DNA of 64,000 nt from a virus: the IMG/VR virus record IMGVR_UViG_3300045988_174823. One strand, given 5' to 3'. The position numbers and the translations under genes were made by a program. The notes under the pieces are model-generated. The model saw nothing but the letters and a program-made list of their open reading frames with translations, searched no databases and was not told where the DNA came from. Of the stretch, positions 36,805 to 61,359 are shown piece after piece (positions within the stretch are counted from its first letter, which is position 1; every line of letters begins with the position of its first letter).

Positions 36805-37608
36805 TTACACTTCTACAGCGTCAAAGTCAATATCAAATTTCTTATATACAATGCGCAACTCGGGCACACCATTGATCGGCTTCTTCTTTTCATCAACACG
36901 AGCGTTAAGCGGCCAACGCTTCAAGATGATATCATGCGCACGTTGAACGCGCTCACGACGTTCGTACACATCCTGGAGACCGCCACCTTGTGTAGCTTCC
37001 TTGTTCATCTTACTCTGGAGCAAGAACCGTACGAATCGCGCATACACGATGCCGAGATACATACATTTTAACGAATAGTCGATATCACATTTCAACTCCA
37101 ACCGCTCATCAAAGTCCAACTCTAACGTGCGAAGACCCTTGAACACGATAAGGTGTGGAATACCGCCGTATTTGAAACGCGGACTAACGTCGATGCAATT
37201 CCAATCAAAAGCACTTTTGCCCATGGTGCCATATTCGAAGTCGGTTTTCATCACCTCTCGGTCGAATTCGTTGAAGAATTCAGCCAACTCTTCATGGGTT
37301 TTCAACGACAGTCCGCATTTGGCTTCACCGTCAATTGAGTAGAAGAAGTTGGCGATATCGTCATCCATCACCACAACGGGATACCCCTCGCGCAAGTAGG
37401 TATTCTTGCAGAAATTGACTACGTAGCTGTAGCCACGATTCGAGGCTGGAAGCACAATGAGGCGTTCGCGCTCATGCCCGGCTTCAACATATTTTTCAAC
37501 ATCCTCTTTTTCTACCACGATGTGGTAATCCACGCCGCCCTTTTTCAACAATCGAGTCGTGACGCATTTAGGGCGGTTTTTAGACACGACAAAGAATTGA
37601 CAGTTCAT
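36805..37608 (-). CDS. GT-A-like glycosyltransferase (paralogue of 55500-56315)
   Basis: Start placed at the ATG at 37608, 2 nt after the upstream TGA; the track ORF starts at 37638. DxD-like 'VVVMDDDI' is present. Blocks shared with the paralogue are 'KCDIDYSL...QGGGLQDVY...RWP' vs 'KEDFALAC...AAGGCSVY...TFP'. Confidence 0.45.
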   Translation of the reverse strand: MNCQFFVVSKNRPKCVTTRLLKKGGVDYHIVVEKEDVEKYVEAGHERERLIVLPASNRGYSYVVNFCKNTYLREGYPVVVMDDDIANFFYSIDGEAKCGLSLKTHEELAEFFNEFDREVMKTDFEYGTMGKSAFDWNCIDVSPRFKYGGIPHLIVFKGLRTLELDFDERLELKCDIDYSLKCMYLGIVYARFVRFLLQSKMNKEATQGGGLQDVYERRERVQRAHDIILKRWPLNARVDEKKKPINGVPELRIVYKKFDIDFDAVEV

Positions 37609-37610
37609 AC

Positions 37611-38291
37611 TCAAAATGGTAAGTCGCCCTCGTACCAAATTTCCTCAGGCGGGTTCTGTTCTATAAAACGTTGATAATTGTCCAGTGTACTTTCTAACGA
37701 TGGATAAAACCTCATGAACAACTCCCACTTAACGTCAAACATATCATCACACGATACGCGGCGTTTCATCAGTAGGCTTTCGCTATTATAGCACTGCACG
37801 CAGACCTGACGACGGCCTCGTAGTACGTACGAATAGGGAAAGTCGCGATAGTATTCCGCACCAGACGCTGTATTATACACCACATCATGGATAAACTGGT
37901 TGAACGGGTGTCCTGCGCCGAGAGGTGCCAGTAACGTATAACCGGGATTGCGGTGCATAAACTTCCGCAAATGATCGCGAAGCGCTTGTTCGGCGAAATT
38001 AAGGCCGTCATTCCCGAATTTGGCGCGTAAGTACGTATAGACGCTCTCATAATTACAGTCCTTGGAATGGGCCTGAAAATCGCTACAACGGACATTTTCT
38101 AACTCCAGGTCCAGACAATCCATGGCTATACCCAGAAAATTGTACAGAAGCCGCTGCTCTGAAACGCGCTTTGGGTCGCTATCTACAGTAAGCACCCGAA
38201 CGTCATATTCGGGTGCTACTAAAACGTGACAAGCACTCATCAGGAGATCACCCGCGTGTGGCTCGACACAGAGGTATTTTATTTTTCCCAT
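37611..38291 (-). CDS. PIG-L/LmbE-like putative deacetylase (divergent)
   Basis: 'YLCVEPHAGDLLMSACH...DVRVLTV' compares with the AHPDDE motif, and 'GAGHPFNQFIHDVV' with the HPDH motif. Confidence 0.4.
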   Translation of the reverse strand: MGKIKYLCVEPHAGDLLMSACHVLVAPEYDVRVLTVDSDPKRVSEQRLLYNFLGIAMDCLDLELENVRCSDFQAHSKDCNYESVYTYLRAKFGNDGLNFAEQALRDHLRKFMHRNPGYTLLAPLGAGHPFNQFIHDVVYNTASGAEYYRDFPYSYVLRGRRQVCVQCYNSESLLMKRRVSCDDMFDVKWELFMRFYPSLESTLDNYQRFIEQNPPEEIWYEGDLPF

Positions 38292-39238
38292 GGCCGTTTG
38301 TATATCTTCTCGACGCAGGGGCCGTCCTTCGATACGTCCTCAGCCATACGGCGAATTTCTGGCGTGATAGGCGGGAGCGTTTTCTTACCCATCTTATCAG
38401 GCAGGAAACCGACACGGACGCTGACATGTGTACACCCCTGACACGGACGGAACCGACGATCGTTGTTGTACAGCATCACGCGGGCAGCATGAAAGCGCGG
38501 ATGGTTCCAGAGGTCTTCGATAGGCATGTCGTGGATGTTGGCGATAGGGTACTCGCCGCGAAAGTCGTCGCAGCACAAGCACACCTGGCCGTTCCAACGC
38601 ACATCCAGTTCGCGGAACGGAAAAGTACATCGTTTGTTGTTGAACGAGTCGTCGAGCGGGAACGCTGCGCCACAGTGGTTAGCCAGACGACGCGTCATCT
38701 TGTTGGTATCGTCTTCGGCGATAGGCGGCAACAGACAGATACGGCGGCCCTGCTTGGGGTAGTAGTACGGAACGCCCGGTTCCAGCGTAACGACGTTGTA
38801 TTTCTCGATGTCGATTTTCTCGACGAAATTCCAGTCACCCTTAGCCGTATAGCAGTCCACCAGAATATCATTCATGCCGGCTTCAAAAAGACGGTCTAAA
38901 TATTCCGACGTATCCTTGGCGTGGTTCATACCGTACCCGTTGCTGTACATATGAAATACGGCTTTGGGCAGGTGTTTACGGAACGTAGCCACGATGTCGA
39001 TGAATGCGGGGTTGAGCGTCGGTTCGCCGTGCATAGCGAATACGAACTTACATTTCCACCCTACGCGGGCTACCTCTGAAGCGATACGCTCGGCGGTTTC
39101 AACGGTCATGAAATTCCACGGCTTAGTGCCTTTTTCGCGCATGCCGTGGAGACCGCAAAACGAACAACCCAGATTACACCCCTCCGTCGGTTCAATCTGC
39201 ATAGTGAACGGAGGGTCTTGTACGATTTTGTTTTTCAT
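38279..39238 (-). CDS. radical SAM enzyme with C-terminal SPASM/twitch-like Cys cluster
   Basis: 'EGCNLGCSFCG' matches CxxxCxxC. The C-terminus carries 'CTFPFRELDVRWNGQVCLCCDDF...CQGCTH'. Confidence 0.8.
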   Translation of the reverse strand: MKNKIVQDPPFTMQIEPTEGCNLGCSFCGLHGMREKGTKPWNFMTVETAERIASEVARVGWKCKFVFAMHGEPTLNPAFIDIVATFRKHLPKAVFHMYSNGYGMNHAKDTSEYLDRLFEAGMNDILVDCYTAKGDWNFVEKIDIEKYNVVTLEPGVPYYYPKQGRRICLLPPIAEDDTNKMTRRLANHCGAAFPLDDSFNNKRCTFPFRELDVRWNGQVCLCCDDFRGEYPIANIHDMPIEDLWNHPRFHAARVMLYNNDRRFRPCQGCTHVSVRVGFLPDKMGKKTLPPITPEIRRMAEDVSKDGPCVEKIYKRPWEK

Positions 39239-41268
39239 TATTTGGTAACTTTAATGTTAAGTTTCACGTTCTTTAACTTTGGGTTCTTAAACTGGCGTTT
39301 GATAGGCTTGATGAAAGCGCGGGTTGCAGGGTCCCAATCAAAGCCATCAGGAACGTGGTTGACTGTACACCGGCAATTGTGAACCACAATTCCATCGGCA
39401 ATGTAGCTTTCATCTTCGGCAACTGAAATATTGTACAATTTAGTGTACTTTTTAGATCTCGGAACTTGTTTAATGTATAAAACCTTCACACCACGCGAAA
39501 CTATTTGCCCCCGGTGATTTTTGAACAGCCGTTTCAGGCGGTTGTAAACCATATCGCCGTGGTTGTTTATCTCATCTTCAGTGAAGCGGAATGTCTCATA
39601 GCCGTAACACTCCAAAATGTCCTTATCGCGGTTGGAATCGTATTCCGGATCGTTGTGCCATTTTTCGCCGTCAGCCTCCAAAACAATCTTGAGATCGGGA
39701 ATCAGTAAATCGGGGAAATACCCCACAACATCGTTGCGGAACTTTCCGTTATTTTTCAAGAACACCCCTGTCTTAGCTTCAACTCCTAACGACTTACACA
39801 GATACTCCAACTTGCGCTCGATGAACGACCGTTTCTTACCATTGGTAGAATTAGTCTTCTTCAGCGCCTCAGCCATCCAAGGATACTCACCTTGATATTT
39901 ATCTTCGATAGCTTTTCTTGCTCTGGTGGTAAGTTTCTGACGATCGACAGCACTCATATTGGCATAACGAACAGCCATCTCTTCTTTGACTTTCTTACTC
40001 ATGTAAGAACGGAACTCTGTGTCTTGCCATTGCGAGACGCACTGTTCGCTCCGGTGACAAGCTATACACAGCCCCCTCTCCAAAAGAGTATCGCTGGCTG
40101 AAACGTATATTGGCATAAACGAACCGCATTTTTCACAACAAACACCTTCGATTGTTATCAAATCGCCTGTTTTCAATGAAGCAGCCTCTCGCCATTCACC
40201 GTTTGAAAGAATTGGATGATTTCCTGTTATACGACGCACCTTCCGTACCTTTTTACGCCCTAAAAGGTTTTTGACGGCATAATAGATGTCGTACAGGGGT
40301 TCATCCTTATGATCGTGAATAATCACTTCCGTAACAGGCCTAAACCTCCCTCGGTGAGTCAAAACCATATCCCCTTTCTTTAGAGAAGATATGTTTCTCC
40401 ATCCGTTGATGGTGTACACCTTTGTAGCCGGATTATTGAAACAATAGGGGTGCGTTGGGTCAATCGTAGGGAGCCATTCTGCCACCTTACGACCGATGTT
40501 GTTACCGTTAGCGATAAGGTCTGCCAAACGGAACAGTTTCGGTTTCGAGGTAGGGTCTTCGGGGTCTTCTAAGTACAACTCCCGGCACTTAGCGCACGCG
40601 CCTGGATAGACGTCGAAATACACTTTGGCGTCAGGACCGTGTTGCTTGAAAATACTTTCGGCACGGCCCACGTTGTAGGCTTCGTGTAGAAGGTAGTACG
40701 CAATACGCAGCCAATCGCGTCCCCAGTCTTGGGTAAGGTTTCCGAGTTCGCTGGCTATATACCGGGCTCCCTTACGGAGTTGAACAGCTTGAATGGCCTT
40801 GTCTTTTATTTGTTGACGTATTTCTGATTGTTGACGGAAATTCGATTTGAGTACAGCGTTGCGTGTTCCGGTGACGATACGATTACCAAGCGACGTGATG
40901 TCGGTATAGGCACGATTCTTGAGGTAGTTGAGCGCGTTTTCTTCCTGTTCGGTAAGCGGAACAAAGTTTCCCGATTTCAAGAACTGGAGAAACTGCTTGT
41001 AATTCATCTTCTTGGCGCGAGTGTCGCCAATTGCTTCGGCCAGTATTCCAAACAAAAAGGCGTGTTCGATGATGCCCTTTGAGTTCTTGTACTTATCGAC
41101 GTTGACCCCTGAAGCTACCAAGATATCAATTTCAGACTGCGTGAGGTAGTCCAATCCGACGTGCTTGGCAATAAAGAGATATTGCCAACGCCGGAGAATA
41201 CCGACCATGTCGTCTATTTGACGGTTGTTGAAAATCATAACTTTTCGACGTCTTTTCGGGGAATCCAT
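39238..41268 (-). CDS. Mu-F / SPP1-gp7-like head morphogenesis protein interrupted by an intein
   Basis: The exteins give '...YPGACAKCRELY...PTHPY|CRCTVNHVP', which reconstitutes the Mu-F family CxxC and HPxCRC motifs. Confidence 0.75.
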   Translation of the reverse strand: MDSPKRRRKVMIFNNRQIDDMVGILRRWQYLFIAKHVGLDYLTQSEIDILVASGVNVDKYKNSKGIIEHAFLFGILAEAIGDTRAKKMNYKQFLQFLKSGNFVPLTEQEENALNYLKNRAYTDITSLGNRIVTGTRNAVLKSNFRQQSEIRQQIKDKAIQAVQLRKGARYIASELGNLTQDWGRDWLRIAYYLLHEAYNVGRAESIFKQHGPDAKVYFDVYPGACAKCRELYLEDPEDPTSKPKLFRLADLIANGNNIGRKVAEWLPTIDPTHPYCFNNPATKVYTINGWRNISSLKKGDMVLTHRGRFRPVTEVIIHDHKDEPLYDIYYAVKNLLGRKKVRKVRRITGNHPILSNGEWREAASLKTGDLITIEGVCCEKCGSFMPIYVSASDTLLERGLCIACHRSEQCVSQWQDTEFRSYMSKKVKEEMAVRYANMSAVDRQKLTTRARKAIEDKYQGEYPWMAEALKKTNSTNGKKRSFIERKLEYLCKSLGVEAKTGVFLKNNGKFRNDVVGYFPDLLIPDLKIVLEADGEKWHNDPEYDSNRDKDILECYGYETFRFTEDEINNHGDMVYNRLKRLFKNHRGQIVSRGVKVLYIKQVPRSKKYTKLYNISVAEDESYIADGIVVHNCRCTVNHVPDGFDWDPATRAFIKPIKRQFKNPKLKNVKLNIKVTK
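39376..40443 (-). mobile_element. intein (356 aa) carrying a Zn-ribbon and a Vsr/DUF559-type PD-(D/E)xK nuclease domain
   Basis: It starts with 'CFNNPATKVYTINGW', has block B 'ITGNHPIL', and ends 'IADGIVVHN' followed by +1 Cys. The insert carries 'CCEKCG...CIACH' and 'YFPDLLIPDLKIVLEADGEKWHNDPEYDSNRDKDILECYGYETFRFTEDEI'. Confidence 0.8.
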
Positions 41269-42265: not shown

Positions 42266-42437
42266 CCTCGTTTAGTTCTTTAATCGCCGCAGCCGTAGCG
42301 TCGGCGATGTACTTCAAGACATCACCGAGCGCCGCGGCATTATTGGCGTTCCATTCCCGGATAAACCGATTTTCGTACTGAGTAACGGTGGGGAATGGCG
42401 ACGGAAGAAAGTGGGTATGTTTGGCGTTGTAGGGCAT
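42219..42437 (-). CDS. hypothetical protein
   Basis: 72-aa ORF whose start codon overlaps the upstream stop codon (1-nt overlap at 42437). Confidence 0.4.
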   Translation of the reverse strand: MPYNAKHTHFLPSPFPTVTQYENRFIREWNANNAAALGDVLKYIADATAAAIKELNEDETKKGNLGHTAKED

Positions 42438-44224
42438 TACTCTTCGGTGTTACCGCCGTAAATCTCCAGGAACTTGTCAACGAATTCCTTGTTGGTGCGT
42501 TTCATTACCTCCAATTGCGCGTCAACCTTCTTGCGGTATTCTTCCGGGTCATACACCCCGCGAAGCGAATCGCGTGCAGCCTGACGCTCGTCAGCGATTT
42601 TCTTCAACTCGGGATGACTGAGGAGTTCTTGACCAACACCCTGATCACGCGACTGCGGATCGGTAAGCGAATTGAGACTCAAAGCAGCACGCTGGGCCTC
42701 CTTGTCGCCAGATGCGATCCTTGCCTTCAGAGCGCGGGCAATACCTTCAGGGTTCTTGGCGATCATCTTGGCGTACTCAGCCGGATCAGCTCCCCTGTCG
42801 GTTTTCTTGATGAATTTGTCCGCGGCAGCGTTGTCCTTCTCGGGCGAAGACTTTGCGGCTTTGTCGGTCTTGGCTTTTGCGCCCTTCTCGGCACTCTTCA
42901 CTTCAGCCTTCGCCTTCTCGCCTTGCTTAGTGGCGCTTTCCTCCTCGCCGCCAATCAGCGCGTCGAGTTCCTTCTGGCCGTCCTTCGATACCTTCACGCC
43001 AGCCATCTCGAACATATTGGCGATGGTGTCGGCAATTTCGTCGTCCGTAGCGTCGGACTGAGCGCCGCTGACATCAGCCGGGTTTGCTTTCATGGCTGCG
43101 GCCAGTTCCTTGATAGCTGCAGCGTCACCCTTCTGCTTTACGAAGGACTTGAAGCCTTTGGTGTCGAAGTCGGTATCGTTTTCGGCCATATCGTCGAAAC
43201 TCTGAACGAGGCTTTCAGCGCTGCTGACCTTACCATCGCCGTTGGAATCAGCACGCATCTTGTCGAGCGTGGCTTGGCCTTTCTTCGAAAGATCGATTCC
43301 GGCCTCTTCGAAGATATTGGCAATCTCGTCGGCGATTTCATCATCACCCAGATCACTCTGTCCAGCCTCACTGGGCGTCTTACGGATAGCGTCGGCCAGT
43401 TCCTTCACAGCCTTTCCACCCTTTTCCTTGACGAAAGATTTGAACGACTTGGCGTCAAAATCAGCGTTACCTTCAGCCATTTCGTTGAAACTGTCAATGA
43501 GCGATGCGGCATCAGCCTTTCCGCCCTTTGCTTTAGCGTCGGGGTCGCCGAATTTAGACGCAGCGCCCTCAACATCGCTGATTTCCTTCACCGTCGTAGA
43601 TTCAAAGTTGTCCACGTCGGCGTAAGGATATTTATCTACGCGGTAGCCGTCGCTGGTCTTGGTAACTACCAGATCGAAACCGTCTTCGTCGCCGCCTACT
43701 TGCTTGATAAAAGCATGAGAAGCGTCCTCTACCCCGGCGTATTGCTCCAGATCACGATCGTCCATTTGACGGAAGCCCATGCCCTCAAACGTCGAGGTAG
43801 ATTTGGCATCGCCGTCAGCCAGCCCATTGCGCAGCGACGTATCGCCTTTCTTATTCTTGGCGCGAACGTTTATGCCACGACGCTCCAACTCAGCCGTGGC
43901 TACCTTACGCATCTCAGCGTCGGCCGACGGGTCGTTGGCTACTTTCACGAGGGCCTCTTCTGAAGCCTGACGTGCATGGTTCTGGAGGCTGACGTTCCCC
44001 TCGGGTACACCCTCGCCGCCTTCTTGACCTGCCTCGGGCTTTTCCTGAGCGGCATGACCATATTCCTGTCCCACGCGCTGCAGACGACGGTTTTGAGCGT
44101 TATCAGCATAAACACCGTGACGCGCTTTTTCGATCGGCGTTTCCTCAACGCACTCTTCTATGTTGGTAAATCCTTTCAAAATCTGTTGACGACGCGCTTC
44201 GCCATAGTTGATAATTTCTTTCAT
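42437..44224 (-). CDS. acidic repeat-containing protein, putative virion internal/ejected protein
   Basis: 595 aa. It has an N-terminal 'IEKARHGVYADNAQNRRLQRVGQEYG' module and two tandem repeats of about 90 aa. The composition is Lys/Glu/Asp/Ala-rich. Confidence 0.5.
   Translation of the reverse strand: MKEIINYGEARRQQILKGFTNIEECVEETPIEKARHGVYADNAQNRRLQRVGQEYGHAAQEKPEAGQEGGEGVPEGNVSLQNHARQASEEALVKVANDPSADAEMRKVATAELERRGINVRAKNKKGDTSLRNGLADGDAKSTSTFEGMGFRQMDDRDLEQYAGVEDASHAFIKQVGGDEDGFDLVVTKTSDGYRVDKYPYADVDNFESTTVKEISDVEGAASKFGDPDAKAKGGKADAASLIDSFNEMAEGNADFDAKSFKSFVKEKGGKAVKELADAIRKTPSEAGQSDLGDDEIADEIANIFEEAGIDLSKKGQATLDKMRADSNGDGKVSSAESLVQSFDDMAENDTDFDTKGFKSFVKQKGDAAAIKELAAAMKANPADVSGAQSDATDDEIADTIANMFEMAGVKVSKDGQKELDALIGGEEESATKQGEKAKAEVKSAEKGAKAKTDKAAKSSPEKDNAAADKFIKKTDRGADPAEYAKMIAKNPEGIARALKARIASGDKEAQRAALSLNSLTDPQSRDQGVGQELLSHPELKKIADERQAARDSLRGVYDPEEYRKKVDAQLEVMKRTNKEFVDKFLEIYGGNTEE
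42956..43516 (-). repeat. diverged tandem duplication (2 x ~270-290 nt) inside the CDS
   Basis: aa 237-323 vs 334-423: 'SL[IV][DQ]SF[ND][ED]MAE...DFD.K.FKSFVK.KG...KELA.A......SD..DDEIAD.IAN.FE.AG...SK.GQ..LD'. Confidence 0.8.
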
Positions 44225-47551: not shown

Positions 47552-47836
47552 TTAGCGTGAATATACGTAGGTCTTACGGTCAGCCCACACGAAATTATAA
47601 CTCATATCCCCCTGAGGATACTCGGTAATGGTAATACCATCAGCAGTGGTTTCCCGCTCGATGCGCCATCCTGCCTGCTGTTGACCTGTGCCAATAGGCG
47701 CATAACCGCGGTAGATAACGTCGCCCCCTGAGGCGTCAACAATCGGTTTCGGCATAGCATCGCTCAGCAATTGGACAATGGGCGCGGTGTTTTTCTCGTT
47801 ACTCGTCATGGTGTATTGCTTTTTGTAAGTATTCAT
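47552..47836 (-). CDS. hypothetical small virion-module protein
   Basis: 94-aa ORF overlapping the portal gene 3' end by 38 nt. Confidence 0.45.
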   Translation of the reverse strand: MNTYKKQYTMTSNEKNTAPIVQLLSDAMPKPIVDASGGDVIYRGYAPIGTGQQQAGWRIERETTADGITITEYPQGDMSYNFVWADRKTYVYSR

Positions 47837-49574
47837 CGAATGCAGCTACGAGAGGATTGGACTCGCGTGCCTTCATAGTTTCTTCTTGATCACCCTCAGC
47901 GTAAAGGTCAAACGGATTTCCTGGCTGAGCGGTATCGTCTTCTTCCTCTTCGTCGCCAGCCACGGGTTGATCAGCAGGGCCTCCAGCTTCCATCCCCATA
48001 CCAGCAGCCTCTTCAAACGGATTGCCTCCGCCCATACCGCCCATTGCGGCCTGTTGCTGTTGTTGCTGCTTGGCGCTGATGGCTTGCTGTATAACAGAGT
48101 TTTCGATAGTATCGCCACCCTTTTCTTCGCCGATAGCCGGGAGGTCCCACTTCTCGCGAATTTCGTCCACGGTCTGGAAAGCCTGGAGACGTTTGATGTC
48201 CATATCCAGTTCCTCAGAGATGGTCATTCCGTTGAGGCCCATGAATACGAACTCGAAGTCGGGGTTGATTTGCTCGACGATGAACTTGTTAACCTTACGT
48301 TGGATGAATTTCAGCATCGGGTAAAGACCCTTGTCCTTCGACTGCTCCATGCGCTGCTTTTGGCCGTCGCCGAACGTTAGGCCACTGCCATTGGAACGCG
48401 AAATATCCCAGCCAATTTCCGTAGGGTCAATGCAGAATACTGCACAGGCGATTTTGATCAGATATTCCATCCACGAGTTATACTCCATATCGCGGTTGTT
48501 CTTCTGAAGGTCAACCCAGTCGATATCTCCCTCAACGACAGGCGTCTTCCATGACTGCATAACACCCGATATCATGGCCTGCCATTGCTGCTTGAACTGC
48601 TGAAGCGAGGCTTCGTTCACGTTACCTTTGATACGCAGAAGACCTTTCGGAGCCGAACCCTGTGAGAAGAAGCGGCGGTTGTACTCGTCGCCCCAAAGCA
48701 TCGATGTCACAACGTTGATTAACTCTTCCAACTCAGAGTTTCCGTAACCGTTAGCGTAAATCGACGTGGTCGGATTGCGAATTCCAAAGCACAACTCCCA
48801 TGGGTAGAACTGCGCTACCTTGGCCGTCTGGTACACCTGGACGTAGGCCGGATAATAGCCATCAACCTTAGGTCCCCAGTTCTGGCGATCGTCCATCATC
48901 GCTCCTTCAAAGTAGGGGTTGTTGTACTCGCCATCGAAATACGATTCCGCCAGGCGGAATGTAGCGGCATCAACGGCCTGGAAGCGGACCAGTTTGCCGC
49001 GGCGGTTGCGAATGCACTCAAACGTCATCTGATCGAACGTTAGCGAGTCGTCCACAATCTTACGTATAAATTCGTCAAACTCGTCGCCGTCCCACATAGC
49101 GGTATCGCCACAGTTGAGGATGAAGTCGGTGATGGAAGACGCAATTTTGCGGTCCTGCGTGTCCATCTTCTGCTCTTGGCCGAACTTAGGCTTGCGTCGA
49201 ATAACAAATCCCGTTGAATAGCGGTCGGCCTGCGGTTCGGCGAAGTCAGCTATCTGGTTTTTACGGGTCTTGATAATCGAATTAATAATGGGGGTGCGAC
49301 TCATCCGGCGTAACGTTTCGTACGAAAGCGAAAACGGCTTATCCTTATATCCTAAAAACGAGTTGAACTCCAAAGGATCGATCAGATATGCCTTCGGGGC
49401 AACGTTAGCAGGCTTGTGTTGCTGGTTTAATATTTCAGCAGCTTTGAGTATATCAGACGGGCTCTCGCTGCGCATCGCACGCTCTAACAACAGCGATTTG
49501 CGTATCGTCAAAGCCTGCATGGCGCGTTCCACCGATTCCAATCTTTCTTTCACACCGGACATAATTGTTTTCAC
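47799..49574 (-). CDS. portal protein
   Basis: 591 aa. It carries the segment 'TLRRMSRTPIINSIIKTRKNQIADF...', an acidic Gln/Glu-rich C-terminus, and lies in the head module. Confidence 0.65.
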   Translation of the reverse strand: MKTIMSGVKERLESVERAMQALTIRKSLLLERAMRSESPSDILKAAEILNQQHKPANVAPKAYLIDPLEFNSFLGYKDKPFSLSYETLRRMSRTPIINSIIKTRKNQIADFAEPQADRYSTGFVIRRKPKFGQEQKMDTQDRKIASSITDFILNCGDTAMWDGDEFDEFIRKIVDDSLTFDQMTFECIRNRRGKLVRFQAVDAATFRLAESYFDGEYNNPYFEGAMMDDRQNWGPKVDGYYPAYVQVYQTAKVAQFYPWELCFGIRNPTTSIYANGYGNSELEELINVVTSMLWGDEYNRRFFSQGSAPKGLLRIKGNVNEASLQQFKQQWQAMISGVMQSWKTPVVEGDIDWVDLQKNNRDMEYNSWMEYLIKIACAVFCIDPTEIGWDISRSNGSGLTFGDGQKQRMEQSKDKGLYPMLKFIQRKVNKFIVEQINPDFEFVFMGLNGMTISEELDMDIKRLQAFQTVDEIREKWDLPAIGEEKGGDTIENSVIQQAISAKQQQQQQAAMGGMGGGNPFEEAAGMGMEAGGPADQPVAGDEEEEDDTAQPGNPFDLYAEGDQEETMKARESNPLVAAFDEYLQKAIHHDE

Positions 49575-49599: not shown

Positions 49600-49923
49600 T
49601 CAACACAACAGTTTCAAAATGTCGTTCCGCGCTGTTTTACGAATTATCAATGCCTGATGAAGAAGGTCGCCCCATACCGCTATCTGGTAACCATTCCACG
49701 TGTAATAATCCGTTTGATCGTCGTACGAGCCATTCCATTCACCGTCGTGGCGTATGTCAGCGACGAGGCGTTTAAAACGCGCTGTTTCTTCGGTGGTAAG
49801 GGGTGATATGAAAGTGCCGACGACTACTAATCGTGCGGCACTTGTGGAAAGATCATCGGCCAAAATCTGAAAGTCGATGCCCATAAAATCGCCCGTTTCC
49901 AACGGCGTGTGAAAGGTTATCAT
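49600..49923 (-). CDS. hypothetical protein
   Basis: 107-aa ORF with a 4-nt overlap upstream. Confidence 0.45.
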   Translation of the reverse strand: MITFHTPLETGDFMGIDFQILADDLSTSAARLVVVGTFISPLTTEETARFKRLVADIRHDGEWNGSYDDQTDYYTWNGYQIAVWGDLLHQALIIRKTARNDILKLLC

Positions 49924-50930
49924 TTGCCTATCAATTTACAAGCTCTTGGTTCAAATGTAGAGCGTTGTTTACCTTCACCAATCTTCATTTTCCAGTACTT
50001 TTGATACTCACACAGCCACATTTCCACCTGGTGAAGTGATATCTCGCCCGACGGCGTGACGTAATACCCCGATTCAAGTTTGTGCCAGTGTAGGTACGGA
50101 AAATCGCCAAACGAAGATAACGCTGCCTGTGCCTCATCACGCAGGCGATATATACCGTCAATTTGACGCTTCAACGATGGGAACACCAACCGCAGCCCTA
50201 TGGACGCACCAGGCCCCACATTGGTATAGTCATCCTGGGTAAAGTGCATGAAACGGCGATAGGTATAGCGCGGTATGTAGGTGAAGTCTTGGTAGAATTC
50301 GTGAGCGATAAATGTCGCCGACGAAGGTAACTCCTGAAGGAACTTGATAATCTGCCCAGGATCGGTAGCCGTCAACACCGTCCGCATCAGTTTACCTAAC
50401 TTACGATGAAGCGTAGGCACAACCAAATGCGTGTAGCAGTAGTCGCGCGGTTTTCCAGGTGTGGCCATCGAATTGATGAGGTAGGCCGTGGTGTAGGGGT
50501 TGTTGCCTGTGGCACGGTACGACGTTATCATTTCCGCAAAGCGGTCCTCGTCGTATTGGTTATAATCCGGAATGCCCGCTCCCCAACCGTACTTTTCACG
50601 AGCATATTCAAACGTTTCAGGGTTGTTAAAATACCGGAACACCATCATCTTCCAAACCAGATTCGTCAGCGTTAATTCGTCATCCAGCAAGATATTACGT
50701 ATCTGCCACTGCGAATTACGATCCAGTTCACGATACACATTGGTGAATTTGTAATCGCGTAATATAGGATCATCAGTCCACGGACGCGGTTTCTGATCCA
50801 GGAACCGTCGCTTCCATATCATTTGGCGCTCAAACATCGTGCGGAAGAACTCGTGATAGTGTTCCTCGCTGACGTCAAGTGCGGCGTCAGGTAATTTATC
50901 AGCCCAAGGGTAATGATCAAATTTCGCCAT
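49920..50930 (-). CDS. putative DNA base (thymidine) hypermodification protein, aGPT-Pplase / 5-hmdU-DNA-kinase helical-domain family
   Basis: 'ERQMIWKRRFLDQKPRPWTDDPILRDYKFTNVYRELDRNSQW' matches my memory of the family's signature. That signature was recalled, not searched. No P-loop is present. Confidence 0.45.
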   Translation of the reverse strand: MAKFDHYPWADKLPDAALDVSEEHYHEFFRTMFERQMIWKRRFLDQKPRPWTDDPILRDYKFTNVYRELDRNSQWQIRNILLDDELTLTNLVWKMMVFRYFNNPETFEYAREKYGWGAGIPDYNQYDEDRFAEMITSYRATGNNPYTTAYLINSMATPGKPRDYCYTHLVVPTLHRKLGKLMRTVLTATDPGQIIKFLQELPSSATFIAHEFYQDFTYIPRYTYRRFMHFTQDDYTNVGPGASIGLRLVFPSLKRQIDGIYRLRDEAQAALSSFGDFPYLHWHKLESGYYVTPSGEISLHQVEMWLCEYQKYWKMKIGEGKQRSTFEPRACKLIGK

Positions 50931-61067: not shown

Positions 61068-61288
61068 GGGGATGGATTAAACCTTTGATTGATGGAAGTA
61101 TGTTAAATACTTTATGGTCGGGGCGATATTTCACGCCCCGTGTTCGTCGGTTGTCGTTCCTATTGGTGCTCCCCTGTGCCGGCCGGGCGAACTGCCACAA
61201 CGATGACGAACGAAATTTCTTAAAAAGCCCCTCACCCATGGACTTTCGGGCCGCGTCTGCCGCACGCGGTTTTAATTGGGGCTTCTTG

Positions 61289-61359
61289 TTGACCCGGAAG
61301 GATTCGAACCTCCAACACCGGAACCAAAATCCGATGTGTTACCATTACACCACAGGTCA
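61289..61359 (-). tRNA. tRNA-Gln (anticodon UUG), no encoded CCA
   Basis: Hand-folded cloverleaf of 71 nt. Acceptor TGACCTG/CGGGTCA, D arm GTGT-AATGGTA-ACAC, anticodon arm TCGGA-TTTTGGT-TCCGG, variable TGTT, T arm GGAGG-TTCGAAT-CCTTC, discriminator A. Confidence 0.85.

What the first reader, a model, noticed from the sequence alone, without database searches (positions are those of the whole stretch)
39376..40443. Intein in the HPxCRC motif of a Mu-F-like head protein carries a Vsr/DUF559-type nuclease instead of LAGLIDADG or HNH
Removing 'CFNNP...IVVHN' joins 'PTHPY' to 'CRCTV', which restores the conserved Mu-F/SPP1-gp7 motif. Splicing blocks are present: N-terminal Cys, 'TGNHP', and terminal HN followed by +1 Cys. 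The insert between the Hint halves has a Cys4 ribbon ('CCEKCG...CIACH'). It also has a clear PD-(D/E)xK Vsr/DUF559 signature: 'FPDLLIPDLKIVLEADGEKWH......NRDKDILECYGYETFRFTEDEI'. To my knowledge, intein homing nucleases are overwhelmingly LAGLIDADG or HNH. A Vsr-fold homing module, and a Mu-F insertion site, would therefore both be unusual.
Basis: partly seen in the sequence, partly recalled or inferred. Interest (0 to 1): 0.7.

Follow-up and report, generated by a model that had tools for sequence, protein, structure and literature searches.

The report
Mobile intein with Vsr-type nuclease
A phage head-assembly gene is interrupted by a self-splicing protein insert (an intein) that carries, in the same reading frame, a homing nuclease of the Vsr/DUF559 type; the insert is real and seems to have moved recently, but it belongs to a large family already present in public sequence databases, so it is a poorly described variant and not a new kind of element.

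Summary
Window 39376-40443 (minus strand) encodes a 356-aa class-1 intein inside a 676-aa ORF (39238-41268). It has Cys1, TGNH, a terminal HN and a +1 Cys. Removing it rejoins HPY|CRC.

Between the Hint halves lie a Cys4 ribbon, a helical region and a nuclease that passes Pfam's DUF559 cut-off. A profile and a predicted structure match the I-Bth0305I catalytic domain of the EDxHD/Vsr-like homing-endonuclease family.

The extein misses Pfam's Phage_Mu_F model, but profile-profile comparison, fold and motif make it a distant Mu-F relative.

Mobility is supported by three results:
- A related phage contig lacks exactly these 1068 bp.
- A second contig carries the intein at 99.7% nucleotide identity next to extein DNA at 90.6%.
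- Four relatives carry copies with the nuclease deleted.

The novelty claims are overstated. Vsr-like homing nucleases have been linked to split inteins since 2009. A Mu-F intein was reported in 2004. A search of 1.84 billion proteins found at least 87 clusters with this nuclease in-frame inside inteins, about 80% of them in the same Mu-F motif. What I could not find in print is the in-frame arrangement and its specialisation on Mu-F. Interest is moderate.

The parts
39238..41268 (-). Precursor ORF (676 aa plus TAA stop): Mu-F-like head protein interrupted by the intein
   Evidence: One uninterrupted ORF. The portal gene lies upstream on the same strand at 47799-49574.
40444..41268 (-). N-extein (aa 1-275), ending ...PTHPY; contains the CxxC (C225, C228) of the Mu-F-like domain
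   Evidence: 84.7% nucleotide identity to L001 5918-6710. hhalign to Mu-F domains covers extein residues 160-281. Invariant residues are listed.
39376..40443 (-). Intein, 356 aa (CFNNP...IVVHN), 1068 bp
   Evidence: Exactly absent from the intein-less allele L001.
40147..40443 (-). N-terminal Hint half (intein aa 1-99), with Cys1 (40441-40443) and block B TGNH (40216-40227)
   Evidence: PT-HINT, Hint_2 and Vint hits. C1, T73 and H76 are invariant in 20 relatives. Foldseek matches the gp41-1 and DnaB inteins.
40039..40146 (-). Cys4 zinc-ribbon-like element (intein aa 100-135; C103, C106, C126, C129)
   Evidence: C103, C106 and C129 are invariant. The element is retained even in copies that have lost the nuclease.
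39829..40038 (-). Helical region between ribbon and nuclease (intein aa 136-205), presumed to bind DNA
   Evidence: The model shows helices 127-183; residues 185-203 have low confidence. Free-standing homologues have the same arrangement. The DNA-binding role is inferred.
39508..39828 (-). Nuclease core of the DUF559 / Vsr / EDxHD type (intein aa 206-312); active-site stretch D245...E256-x-D258...H263...R272-D273 at 39625-39711
   Evidence: PF04480 scores 34.8-37.1 bits against a cut-off of 20.6. Profile hits: 3hrl E=2e-11, 3r3p E=2e-6. Foldseek: 3r3p, probability 1.0, TM-score (target-normalised) 0.67-0.70. D245, E256, D258 and R272 are invariant, H263 is kept in 19 of 20, and position 273 is D or Q.
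39376..39507 (-). C-terminal Hint half (intein aa 313-356), with block F ...AEDESY and the terminal H355-N356 (39376-39381)
   Evidence: The Intein_splicing model matches to its last position. D344, H355 and N356 are invariant.
39241..39375 (-). C-extein (45 aa), starting with the +1 Cys (39373-39375) of the CRC motif
   Evidence: C276, R277 and C278 are invariant in 108 homologues.

Best explanation
This is a class-1 intein that is very probably able to splice. It carries, in its own reading frame, a homing endonuclease of the Vsr/DUF559/EDxHD branch of the restriction-endonuclease-like fold. It sits between Tyr275 and Cys276 of the invariant HPxCRC motif of a divergent Mu-F/SPP1-gp7-like head protein, in an uncultured phage of roughly 100 kb. 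That phage is distantly related to Chryseobacterium phage MA9V-3 and the Bacteroides DAC16-type phages.

Likely mechanism:
1. The 676-aa precursor is translated. The Hint halves fold around the nuclease module. Cys1, the block B Thr/His, the terminal His-Asn and the +1 Cys carry out standard protein splicing. This step is inferred from conserved residues.
2. Splicing releases a 320-aa head protein whose CxxC...HPxCRC cysteine cluster is restored, together with a free 356-aa intein.
3. In a cell co-infected by a relative without the intein, the intein's ribbon and helical region bind the conserved DNA around ...CACCCCTA(T/C)|TGCCG(G/C)TGT.... The nuclease core (D245, E256, D258, H263) cuts it. 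This step is inferred.
4. Recombinational repair from the intein-bearing genome copies the intein in. This is supported by the population data.
5. Once there are no empty sites left, the nuclease decays by internal deletion. Relatives show this directly.
For: **Anatomy.** Coordinates and splicing residues are confirmed. Pfam gives DUF559 above its cut-off plus Hint-family models. The intein model has pLDDT 82.9 and pTM 0.70. Its Hint part matches the gp41-1, DnaB and RecA inteins, and its insert matches the I-Bth0305I catalytic domain 3r3p (probability 1.0, TM-score 0.67-0.70). The intein-family profile hits 3hrl (a DUF559 structure, E=2e-11), 3r3p (E=2e-6), PvuRts1I (E=3e-5) and Vsr 1cw0 (E=0.014).

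**Selection on the nuclease.** D245, E256, D258, G259, W262 and R272 are invariant, and H263 is kept in 19 of 20 inteins that are only 28-46% identical to this one.

**Mobility.**
- L001, a related phage contig with the same gene order, lacks exactly the 1068 bp. Its flanks are 84-85% identical at the nucleotide level.
- In L002, from another sample, the intein differs at 2 of 780 nt. The adjoining C-extein differs at 13 of 138 nt and the next gene at 13 of 306 nt. The step falls at the junction (Fisher p=3.7e-10).
- Of the 120 closest extein homologues listed (of 287 hits), only P0123 has an insert at this site.
- P0005, P0123, P0006 and P0007 carry the same intein with four different internal deletions that remove the nuclease but keep both Hint halves.

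**Host protein.** hhalign of the extein family against spliced Mu-F domains from proteins that pass PF04233 gives probability 95.6%, E=1.2e-8. Foldseek hits are dominated by 'phage head morphogenesis', 'minor capsid' and 'MuF-like' proteins. Proteins that pass PF04233 carry related inteins at the same motif.
Against: - No experiment: neither splicing nor DNA cleavage has been observed.
- Intein_splicing scores 32-35 bits for this copy, just under Pfam's 35.8 cut-off.
- The nuclease matches solved structures only through a profile or a predicted fold. The single sequence gives E=0.17.
- Model residues 185-203 are low-confidence.
- L002 is a 1.2-kb contig that covers only the 3' three-quarters of the intein and one flank, so the identity step is seen on one side only.
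- The phage appears to hypermodify its DNA (5-hmdU kinase and TET-associated glycosyltransferase genes), so the true substrate may be modified DNA.
- A near-identical intein in diverged flanks could also arise by ordinary recombination without nuclease action.
Confidence: 0.8

Rival explanations
1. The intein splices, but its nuclease is a relic that no longer cuts. The element is now inherited vertically, and the presence/absence pattern reflects precise losses rather than gains.
For: Nuclease decay is frequent in this lineage: P0005, P0123, P0006 and P0007 all carry deletions. The intein is rare among close extein relatives, which repeated loss could also produce.
Against: The window copy keeps every invariant nuclease residue and an uninterrupted frame. 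In L002 the intein is 99.7% identical while the neighbouring DNA is 90.6-95.8% identical, which vertical descent does not predict. Precise loss of 1068 bp without a template is itself unlikely.
Confidence: 0.12
2. The intein has been kept mainly as a conditional switch. Splicing restores the Cys cluster of the Mu-F-like protein, so head maturation would depend on conditions that govern splicing, such as redox state or zinc. The nuclease would be secondary.
For: The insertion splits an invariant CxxC...HPxCRC cluster, and the +1 nucleophile is one of its cysteines. A regulatory role was suggested for the Mu-F intein of Methylococcus capsulatus (PMC517821). Mini-intein copies persist after the nuclease is lost.
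Against: Most close relatives function without any intein. Insertion at conserved functional motifs is the general rule for selfish inteins, because homing nucleases target conserved DNA. There is no evidence here for conditional splicing.
Confidence: 0.06
3. The insert is a non-splicing domain insertion: a Hint-like module plus a nuclease that stays in the mature head protein, perhaps as a cargo nuclease injected with the DNA.
For: Mu-F-family proteins often carry extra effector domains. Long Mu-F proteins of 1000-2977 aa appear among the hits.
Against: All residues needed for splicing are present and invariant (C1, TxxH, D344, HN, +1 Cys). The insert interrupts an invariant motif rather than being appended. 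Deleted copies keep both Hint halves and the exact junctions.
Confidence: 0.02

Closest known systems
EDxHD / Vsr-like homing endonucleases (prototype I-Bth0305I, PDB 3R3P; Dassa et al. 2009, PMC2677866; Taylor et al. 2011, PMC3239194)
   Same: The nuclease has the same fold and the same set of conserved acidic and His residues. Both are two-part enzymes, with an N-terminal DNA-binding region followed by a C-terminal Vsr-like catalytic domain. Both are found in phages and are associated with intervening sequences, including inteins.
   Different: Known members are separate genes. They lie in group I introns, stand free between the two halves of split inteins, or, in the 2025 actinophage survey, lie on the antisense strand of contiguous inteins. 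Here the nuclease is translated in-frame as an internal domain of a contiguous intein. Its best Pfam match is DUF559 rather than Vsr, and it has a Cys4 ribbon at its N-terminus.
Classical bifunctional inteins such as PI-SceI (LAGLIDADG) and the in-frame HNH inteins
   Same: The overall design is the same: a nuclease domain inserted between the two Hint halves, class-1 splicing residues, insertion at a conserved motif of the host protein, and a cycle of invasion, nuclease decay and loss.
   Different: The nuclease belongs to an unrelated fold, restriction-endonuclease-like/Vsr rather than LAGLIDADG or beta-beta-alpha-Me.
Mu-F / minor capsid protein inteins: the Methylococcus capsulatus Mu-like prophage protein F intein (PMC517821) and the actinophage minor capsid inteins (bioRxiv 10.1101/2025.01.02.630785)
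   Same: The host protein family is the same (phage head morphogenesis / SPP1 gp7 / Mu F).
   Different: The M. capsulatus intein has no recognisable endonuclease. The actinophage minor capsid inteins are reported to carry only non-canonical nuclease arrangements, for example an antisense LAGLIDADG. I did not test whether their insertion sites coincide with HPx|CRC.
gp41-1 and related naturally split inteins of 'fractured genes'
   Same: gp41-1 is the closest solved structure to this Hint domain (6qaz, E=4e-5). It comes from the same set of environmental phage loci in which Vsr-like nucleases were first found.
   Different: Those inteins are split, and the nuclease is a separate ORF with its own control elements. 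This one is contiguous and fused. It looks like the 'endonuclease integrated into an intein' state that the 2009 paper's model discusses.

Membership tests
Intein (class 1) | Hint fold formed by N- and C-terminal halves | tested here: met
   PT-HINT, Hint_2, Vint and Intein_splicing all match (32-35 bits, just under the 35.8 cut-off; homologue P0131 scores 40.4). Foldseek matches the gp41-1, DnaB and RecA inteins with probability 1.0.
Intein (class 1) | Cys/Ser at position 1, block B TxxH, C-terminal His-Asn, and Cys/Ser/Thr at +1 | tested here: met
   C1, T73-G-N-H76, H355-N356 and the +1 Cys are present, and all are invariant in 20 relatives.
Intein (class 1) | Removing it restores a contiguous, conserved host protein; intein-less alleles exist | tested here: met
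   HPY|CRC is restored. 108 intein-less homologues have this motif intact. L001 lacks exactly the 1068 bp.
Intein (class 1) | Protein splicing demonstrated | not testable with these tools
   Needs expression of the precursor followed by SDS-PAGE and mass spectrometry.
Pfam DUF559 (PF04480) | Score at or above the gathering cut-off of 20.6 bits | tested here: met
   34.8 bits for the whole protein, 35.9 for the intein and 37.1 for the insert alone.
EDxHD / Vsr-like homing endonucleases | Vsr-like catalytic fold homologous to I-Bth0305I | tested here: met
   The A3 profile matches 3r3p at E=2.2e-6 over profile positions 199-301. Foldseek gives 3r3p probability 1.0 and TM-score 0.67-0.70. Vsr 1cw0 matches at E=0.014.
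EDxHD / Vsr-like homing endonucleases | Conserved catalytic Asp, Glu, Asp and His residues | tested here: met
   D245, E256 and D258 are invariant and H263 is kept in 19 of 20. Residue-by-residue equivalence to I-Bth0305I rests on profile and fold alignment, not on a superposition that I inspected.
EDxHD / Vsr-like homing endonucleases | Site-specific cleavage of the allele that lacks the element | not testable with these tools
   There is only indirect population evidence for mobility.
Phage Mu F / SPP1 gp7 head morphogenesis family (PF04233) | Pfam model match at or above 29.6 bits | tested here: not met
   The spliced extein has no PF04233 hit even at E<=10. None of the extein homologues that lack an insert has a precomputed PF04233 hit; a few longer ones have only PF18823.
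Phage Mu F / SPP1 gp7 head morphogenesis family (PF04233) | Profile-level homology across the domain, including CxxC and HPxCRC | tested here: met
   hhalign of A2 against A4 (spliced Mu-F domains of PF04233-positive proteins) gives probability 95.6%, E=1.2e-8 over 97 columns, extein residues 160-281. The family HMM against spliced P0009 gives a weak 9.4 bits over the same span.
Phage Mu F / SPP1 gp7 head morphogenesis family (PF04233) | Similar fold, and a position in the head module near the portal gene | tested here: inconclusive
   Foldseek against BFVD is dominated by head morphogenesis, minor capsid and MuF-like proteins, but at E=5e-3 to 0.3 (probability up to 1.0, TM-score about 0.5 for the C-terminal domain). 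The portal gene lies 6.5 kb upstream on the same strand.

The most novel reading that the evidence does not exclude
This element may represent a large lineage of contiguous inteins that has not been described in print. In this lineage an EDxHD/DUF559 homing nuclease, with a Cys4 ribbon, is fused in-frame, and the lineage has specialised on phage Mu-F head proteins.

It occupies two insertion points only two codons apart in the same HPxCRC motif, using either cysteine as the +1 nucleophile, plus several other Mu-F sites. That would make Mu-F a major intein hotspot outside DNA-metabolism genes.

The lineage would be the 'integrated' end-state of the pathway proposed in 2009 for how free-standing nucleases enter inteins. 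It would also offer contiguous natural relatives of the gp41-1 split intein and a new set of compact site-specific nucleases.
Probability: 0.5. Interest if true: 0.55.

Novelty: new variant of a known kind. Interest (0 to 1): 0.45.

Why it matters
- **Intein architecture.** Reviews list LAGLIDADG and HNH as the nucleases found in-frame in inteins. Vsr-like enzymes are described only as separate genes, either next to split inteins or on the antisense strand. This locus and its more than 80 relatives show that the Vsr/DUF559 fold has also been fused in-frame, and on a large scale.
- **Intein hosts.** The preferred host is a virion assembly protein rather than a DNA-metabolism enzyme. That bears on how nucleases and inteins come together and on which genes inteins can colonise.
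- **Practical use.** The family offers candidate site-specific nucleases with a defined, conserved target. It also offers contiguous relatives of a widely used fast split intein (gp41-1).
- **Annotation.** A 676-aa 'hypothetical protein' with a DUF559 hit should be read as a Mu-F-like head protein plus an intein.

Tried and rejected
- **Megablast of the gene against 50,697 phage records:** no match, so no close cultured relative exists.
- **Pfam on the spliced extein:** no Phage_Mu_F hit. PHROGs gave only 'head maturation protease' at E=2e-4, probably because that family includes protease-MuF fusion proteins. The Mu-F assignment therefore rests on hhalign and fold evidence.
- **Single-sequence search of the nuclease against PDB sequences:** nothing significant (best E=0.17). 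A profile was needed.
- **Exact look-up of the 676-aa precursor in the assembly index:** not on record.
- **Second copy in the window:** no other copy of the nuclease or of the N-terminal Hint region in any of the six frames.
- **Literature searches** for intein+MuF and intein+DUF559: nothing relevant. 'Intein + head morphogenesis' found the 2004 Methylococcus report.
- **Group I intron carrying a nuclease gene:** rejected. The insert is in-frame, has Hint halves, and its ends fall exactly at codon boundaries.
- **Nuclease encoded on the opposite strand:** rejected. Antisense ORFs across the intein are only 67-92 aa, and the DUF559 match is on the sense frame.
- **Assembly chimera:** rejected. 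The same junctions occur in an independent sample (L002) and across dozens of protein clusters.
Full report
**1. The observation**

The region lies on the minus strand inside one uninterrupted ORF, 39238..41268, encoding 676 aa. The stretch 'CFNNP...IVVHN' is residues 276-631, which is window 39376-40443, exactly as reported. Removing it joins ...DPTHPY to CRCTVNH....

Pfam on the whole protein gives these matches:
- DUF559 (PF04480): E=1.6e-8, 34.8 bits against a cut-off of 20.6, at residues 513-578.
- Intein_splicing: 32.3 bits against a cut-off of 35.8.
- PT-HINT, Hint_2 and Vint: weaker matches.

The isolated insert between the Hint halves scores 37.1 bits on DUF559. The splicing residues are Cys1, T73-G-N-H76, D344, H355-N356 and the +1 Cys. 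The Cys4 element is C103, C106, C126 and C129. All of these are present.

**2. The host protein**

Sequence models do not place the spliced 320-aa extein in a named family. It does not hit Pfam's Phage_Mu_F (PF04233), even at E<=10. PHROGs gives only a weak 'head maturation protease' hit.

The extein has 287 homologues in the 5.8-billion-protein collection. Nearly all are about 310 aa, lack an insert and come from contigs of roughly 95-105 kb. In 108 of them the residues C225, C228, P271, H273, C276, R277 and C278 are invariant.

Three tests link this family to Mu-F:
- **Profile-profile.** hhalign of the family against spliced Mu-F domains from proteins that do pass PF04233 gives probability 95.6%, E=1.2e-8 over extein residues 160-281. 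The alignment includes the IARTE-like helix, the CxxC and the HPxCRC.
- **Fold.** The AlphaFold model (pLDDT 79.7) finds mainly 'phage head morphogenesis domain', 'minor capsid protein' and 'MuF-like' proteins in BFVD, at modest E-values.
- **Shared intein site.** Proteins that pass PF04233 carry related inteins at the same motif.

The portal gene lies upstream on the same strand. The extein is therefore a distant Mu-F/SPP1-gp7 relative that falls below Pfam's threshold.

The phage has no close cultured relative. Its portal and Mu-F-like proteins are 36-41% identical to those of Chryseobacterium phage MA9V-3. They are 25-37% identical to those of the Bacteroides DAC16-type phages, and 30-42% identical to those of the SP-10-like and related large Bacillus and Lysinibacillus phages.

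**3. The insert**

An alignment of 20 related inteins, 28-46% identical to this one, keeps the following invariant:
- the splicing residues;
- three ribbon cysteines;
- the nuclease residues D245, E256, D258, G259, W262 and R272.

H263 is kept in 19 of 20.

A profile of this alignment hits these solved structures:
- the DUF559 structure 3hrl, E=2e-11;
- the catalytic domain of the homing endonuclease I-Bth0305I (3r3p), E=2e-6;
- PvuRts1I, E=3e-5;
- Vsr (1cw0), E=0.014;
- the RecA and gp41-1 inteins.

The intein model has pLDDT 82.9 and pTM 0.70. Its Hint part matches gp41-1, DnaB and other inteins. Its insert matches 3r3p with probability 1.0 and TM-score 0.67-0.70.

The nuclease therefore belongs to the Vsr/DUF559/EDxHD branch. 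It is neither LAGLIDADG nor HNH.

**4. Evidence that it is, or very recently was, mobile**

- **Clean presence/absence.** Contig L001 comes from a different sample. It has the same gene order, with the radical SAM gene next, and its Mu-F-like protein is 92% identical. At the DNA level, window 41238-40445 aligns to L001 5918-6710, and window 39375-36003 aligns to L001 6712-10081. Both flanks are about 84% identical. Exactly the 1068 bp of the intein are missing, and the HPYCRC codons are contiguous.
- **A step in divergence at the junction.** Contig L002 comes from a third sample and carries the intein. It differs from the window at 2 of 780 intein positions. It differs at 13 of 138 positions in the adjoining C-extein and at 13 of 306 in the next gene. 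The first flank mismatch lies six bases past the junction (Fisher p=3.7e-10). Selection cannot hold synonymous sites at 99.7% identity, so the intein has moved between diverged genomes recently.
- **Sporadic distribution.** Among the 120 closest extein homologues, only P0123 has an insert at this site.
- **Nuclease decay.** P0005, P0123, P0006 and P0007 carry the same intein with four different internal deletions. Each deletion removes part or all of the nuclease but keeps the ribbon start, both Hint halves and the junctions.

Together these results fit the textbook homing cycle of invasion, nuclease decay and loss.

The intein is also lower in G+C (43.6%) than the N-extein (48.6%) and the window as a whole (49.2%).

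**5. How common it is**

A profile of the nuclease module alone was searched against 1.84 billion cluster representatives. It found 2193 proteins at E<=1e-3 and 113 at E<=1e-10.

The top 150 break down as follows:
- 87 have a TxxH within 90 residues upstream and an H-N-(C/S/T) about 42 residues downstream. In these the nuclease sits in-frame inside an intein.
- 18 more are fragments with the C-terminal junction only.
- 38 have neither intein flank. The longer ones (about 180-320 aa) are complete free-standing proteins with the same ribbon, helical and nuclease layout; the shorter ones are fragments.

The 84 complete inteins divide by insertion site:
- 58 are inserted as Hxx|intein|C-x-C. This is the site seen here.
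- 12 are inserted two residues later, as HxxCx|intein|C.
- 14 are inserted elsewhere.

Pfam confirms PF04233 + DUF559 + Intein_splicing in many of these, including portal-MuF fusion proteins. It also shows further insertion sites within or next to the Mu-F domain, and one different host, a phage metallopeptidase.

The window element is thus one member of a large intein lineage that targets Mu-F.

**6. What is already known**

- Vsr-like nucleases were proposed as a homing-endonuclease family in 2009. They were found as free-standing genes between split-intein halves, in group I introns, and alone (PMC2677866).
- I-Bth0305I was characterised in 2011 and the family was named EDxHD (PMC3239194). 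Reviews count it among six homing-endonuclease families (PMC3384342).
- A 2025 survey of actinophage inteins reports antisense Vsr-like nucleases in contiguous inteins, and inteins in minor capsid proteins (IPR006528). It states that Vsr-like nucleases had otherwise been reported only with split inteins.
- An intein in protein F of a Mu-like prophage of Methylococcus capsulatus, lacking a nuclease, was noted in 2004 (PMC517821).
- I found no paper describing an in-frame DUF559/Vsr-type nuclease domain in a contiguous intein, or a Mu-F-specialised lineage of such inteins. The searchable library is incomplete, so this is absence of evidence only.

**7. Verdict**

The nuclease class is a known homing-endonuclease family already linked to inteins. 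Mu-F is a known intein host. Sequence databases hold many such elements.

What remains new relative to the literature I could search is the in-frame architecture, its scale, its concentration on the HPxCRC motif at two staggered sites, and, for this locus, clear population evidence of recent movement.

I rate it a new variant of a known kind, of moderate interest. Splicing and cleavage are inferred from conserved residues and population patterns; neither has been demonstrated.

Noticed in passing
window 49920-50930 (-), 36805-37638 (-), 38279-39238 (-): Genes for DNA hypermodification sit among the head genes: a 5-hmdU DNA kinase (PF18723, E=4.5e-52), a TET-associated glycosyltransferase (PF20691), and a radical SAM/SPASM protein directly downstream of the Mu-F-like gene. 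The phage DNA is probably modified, so any homing nuclease here would have to cut modified DNA.
   Followed up: partly
proteins P0161 (1442 aa) and P0141 (1160 aa): These are portal-MuF fusion proteins. P0161 carries two inteins of different types: a LAGLIDADG intein in the portal part and a DUF559 intein in the Mu-F part.
   Followed up: partly
related inteins (for example P0139, P0141, P0148, P0160, P0170): A second insertion point lies two codons downstream in the same HPxCRC motif (HxxCx|intein|C). It uses the second cysteine as the +1 residue: 12 clusters against 58 at the site seen here. Further sites lie in or near the Mu-F CxxC (P0204, P0272) and upstream of the domain (P0188, P0225).
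   Followed up: partly
window 42437-44224 (-): A 595-aa acidic protein with no family hit contains an internal duplication of roughly 90 aa (...SFNEMAEGNADFDAKSFKSFVKEKGG... / ...SFDDMAENDTDFDTKGFKSFVKQKGD...). It may be a scaffold or an internal head protein. The 522-aa ORF on the opposite strand (42395-43963) is probably spurious.
   Followed up: no
intein model m17fbada0b8ee (window 39376-40443): The closest solved structure to the Hint domain is the gp41-1 split intein (6qaz). It comes from the same environmental 'fractured gene' loci in which Vsr-like homing nucleases were discovered (PMC2677866).
   Followed up: no
BFVD entries A0A8S5V185 and A0A8S5MMT0: Two UniProt viral proteins from human-virome 'Siphoviridae sp.' contigs are 30-31% identical to this extein. 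They are named only 'Hint domain-containing protein' and 'Intein splicing domain', so intein-bearing members of this head-protein family are already in UniProt without being recognised as such.
   Followed up: no
window 61288-61359 (-): A single tRNA-Gln (anticodon TTG).
   Followed up: no
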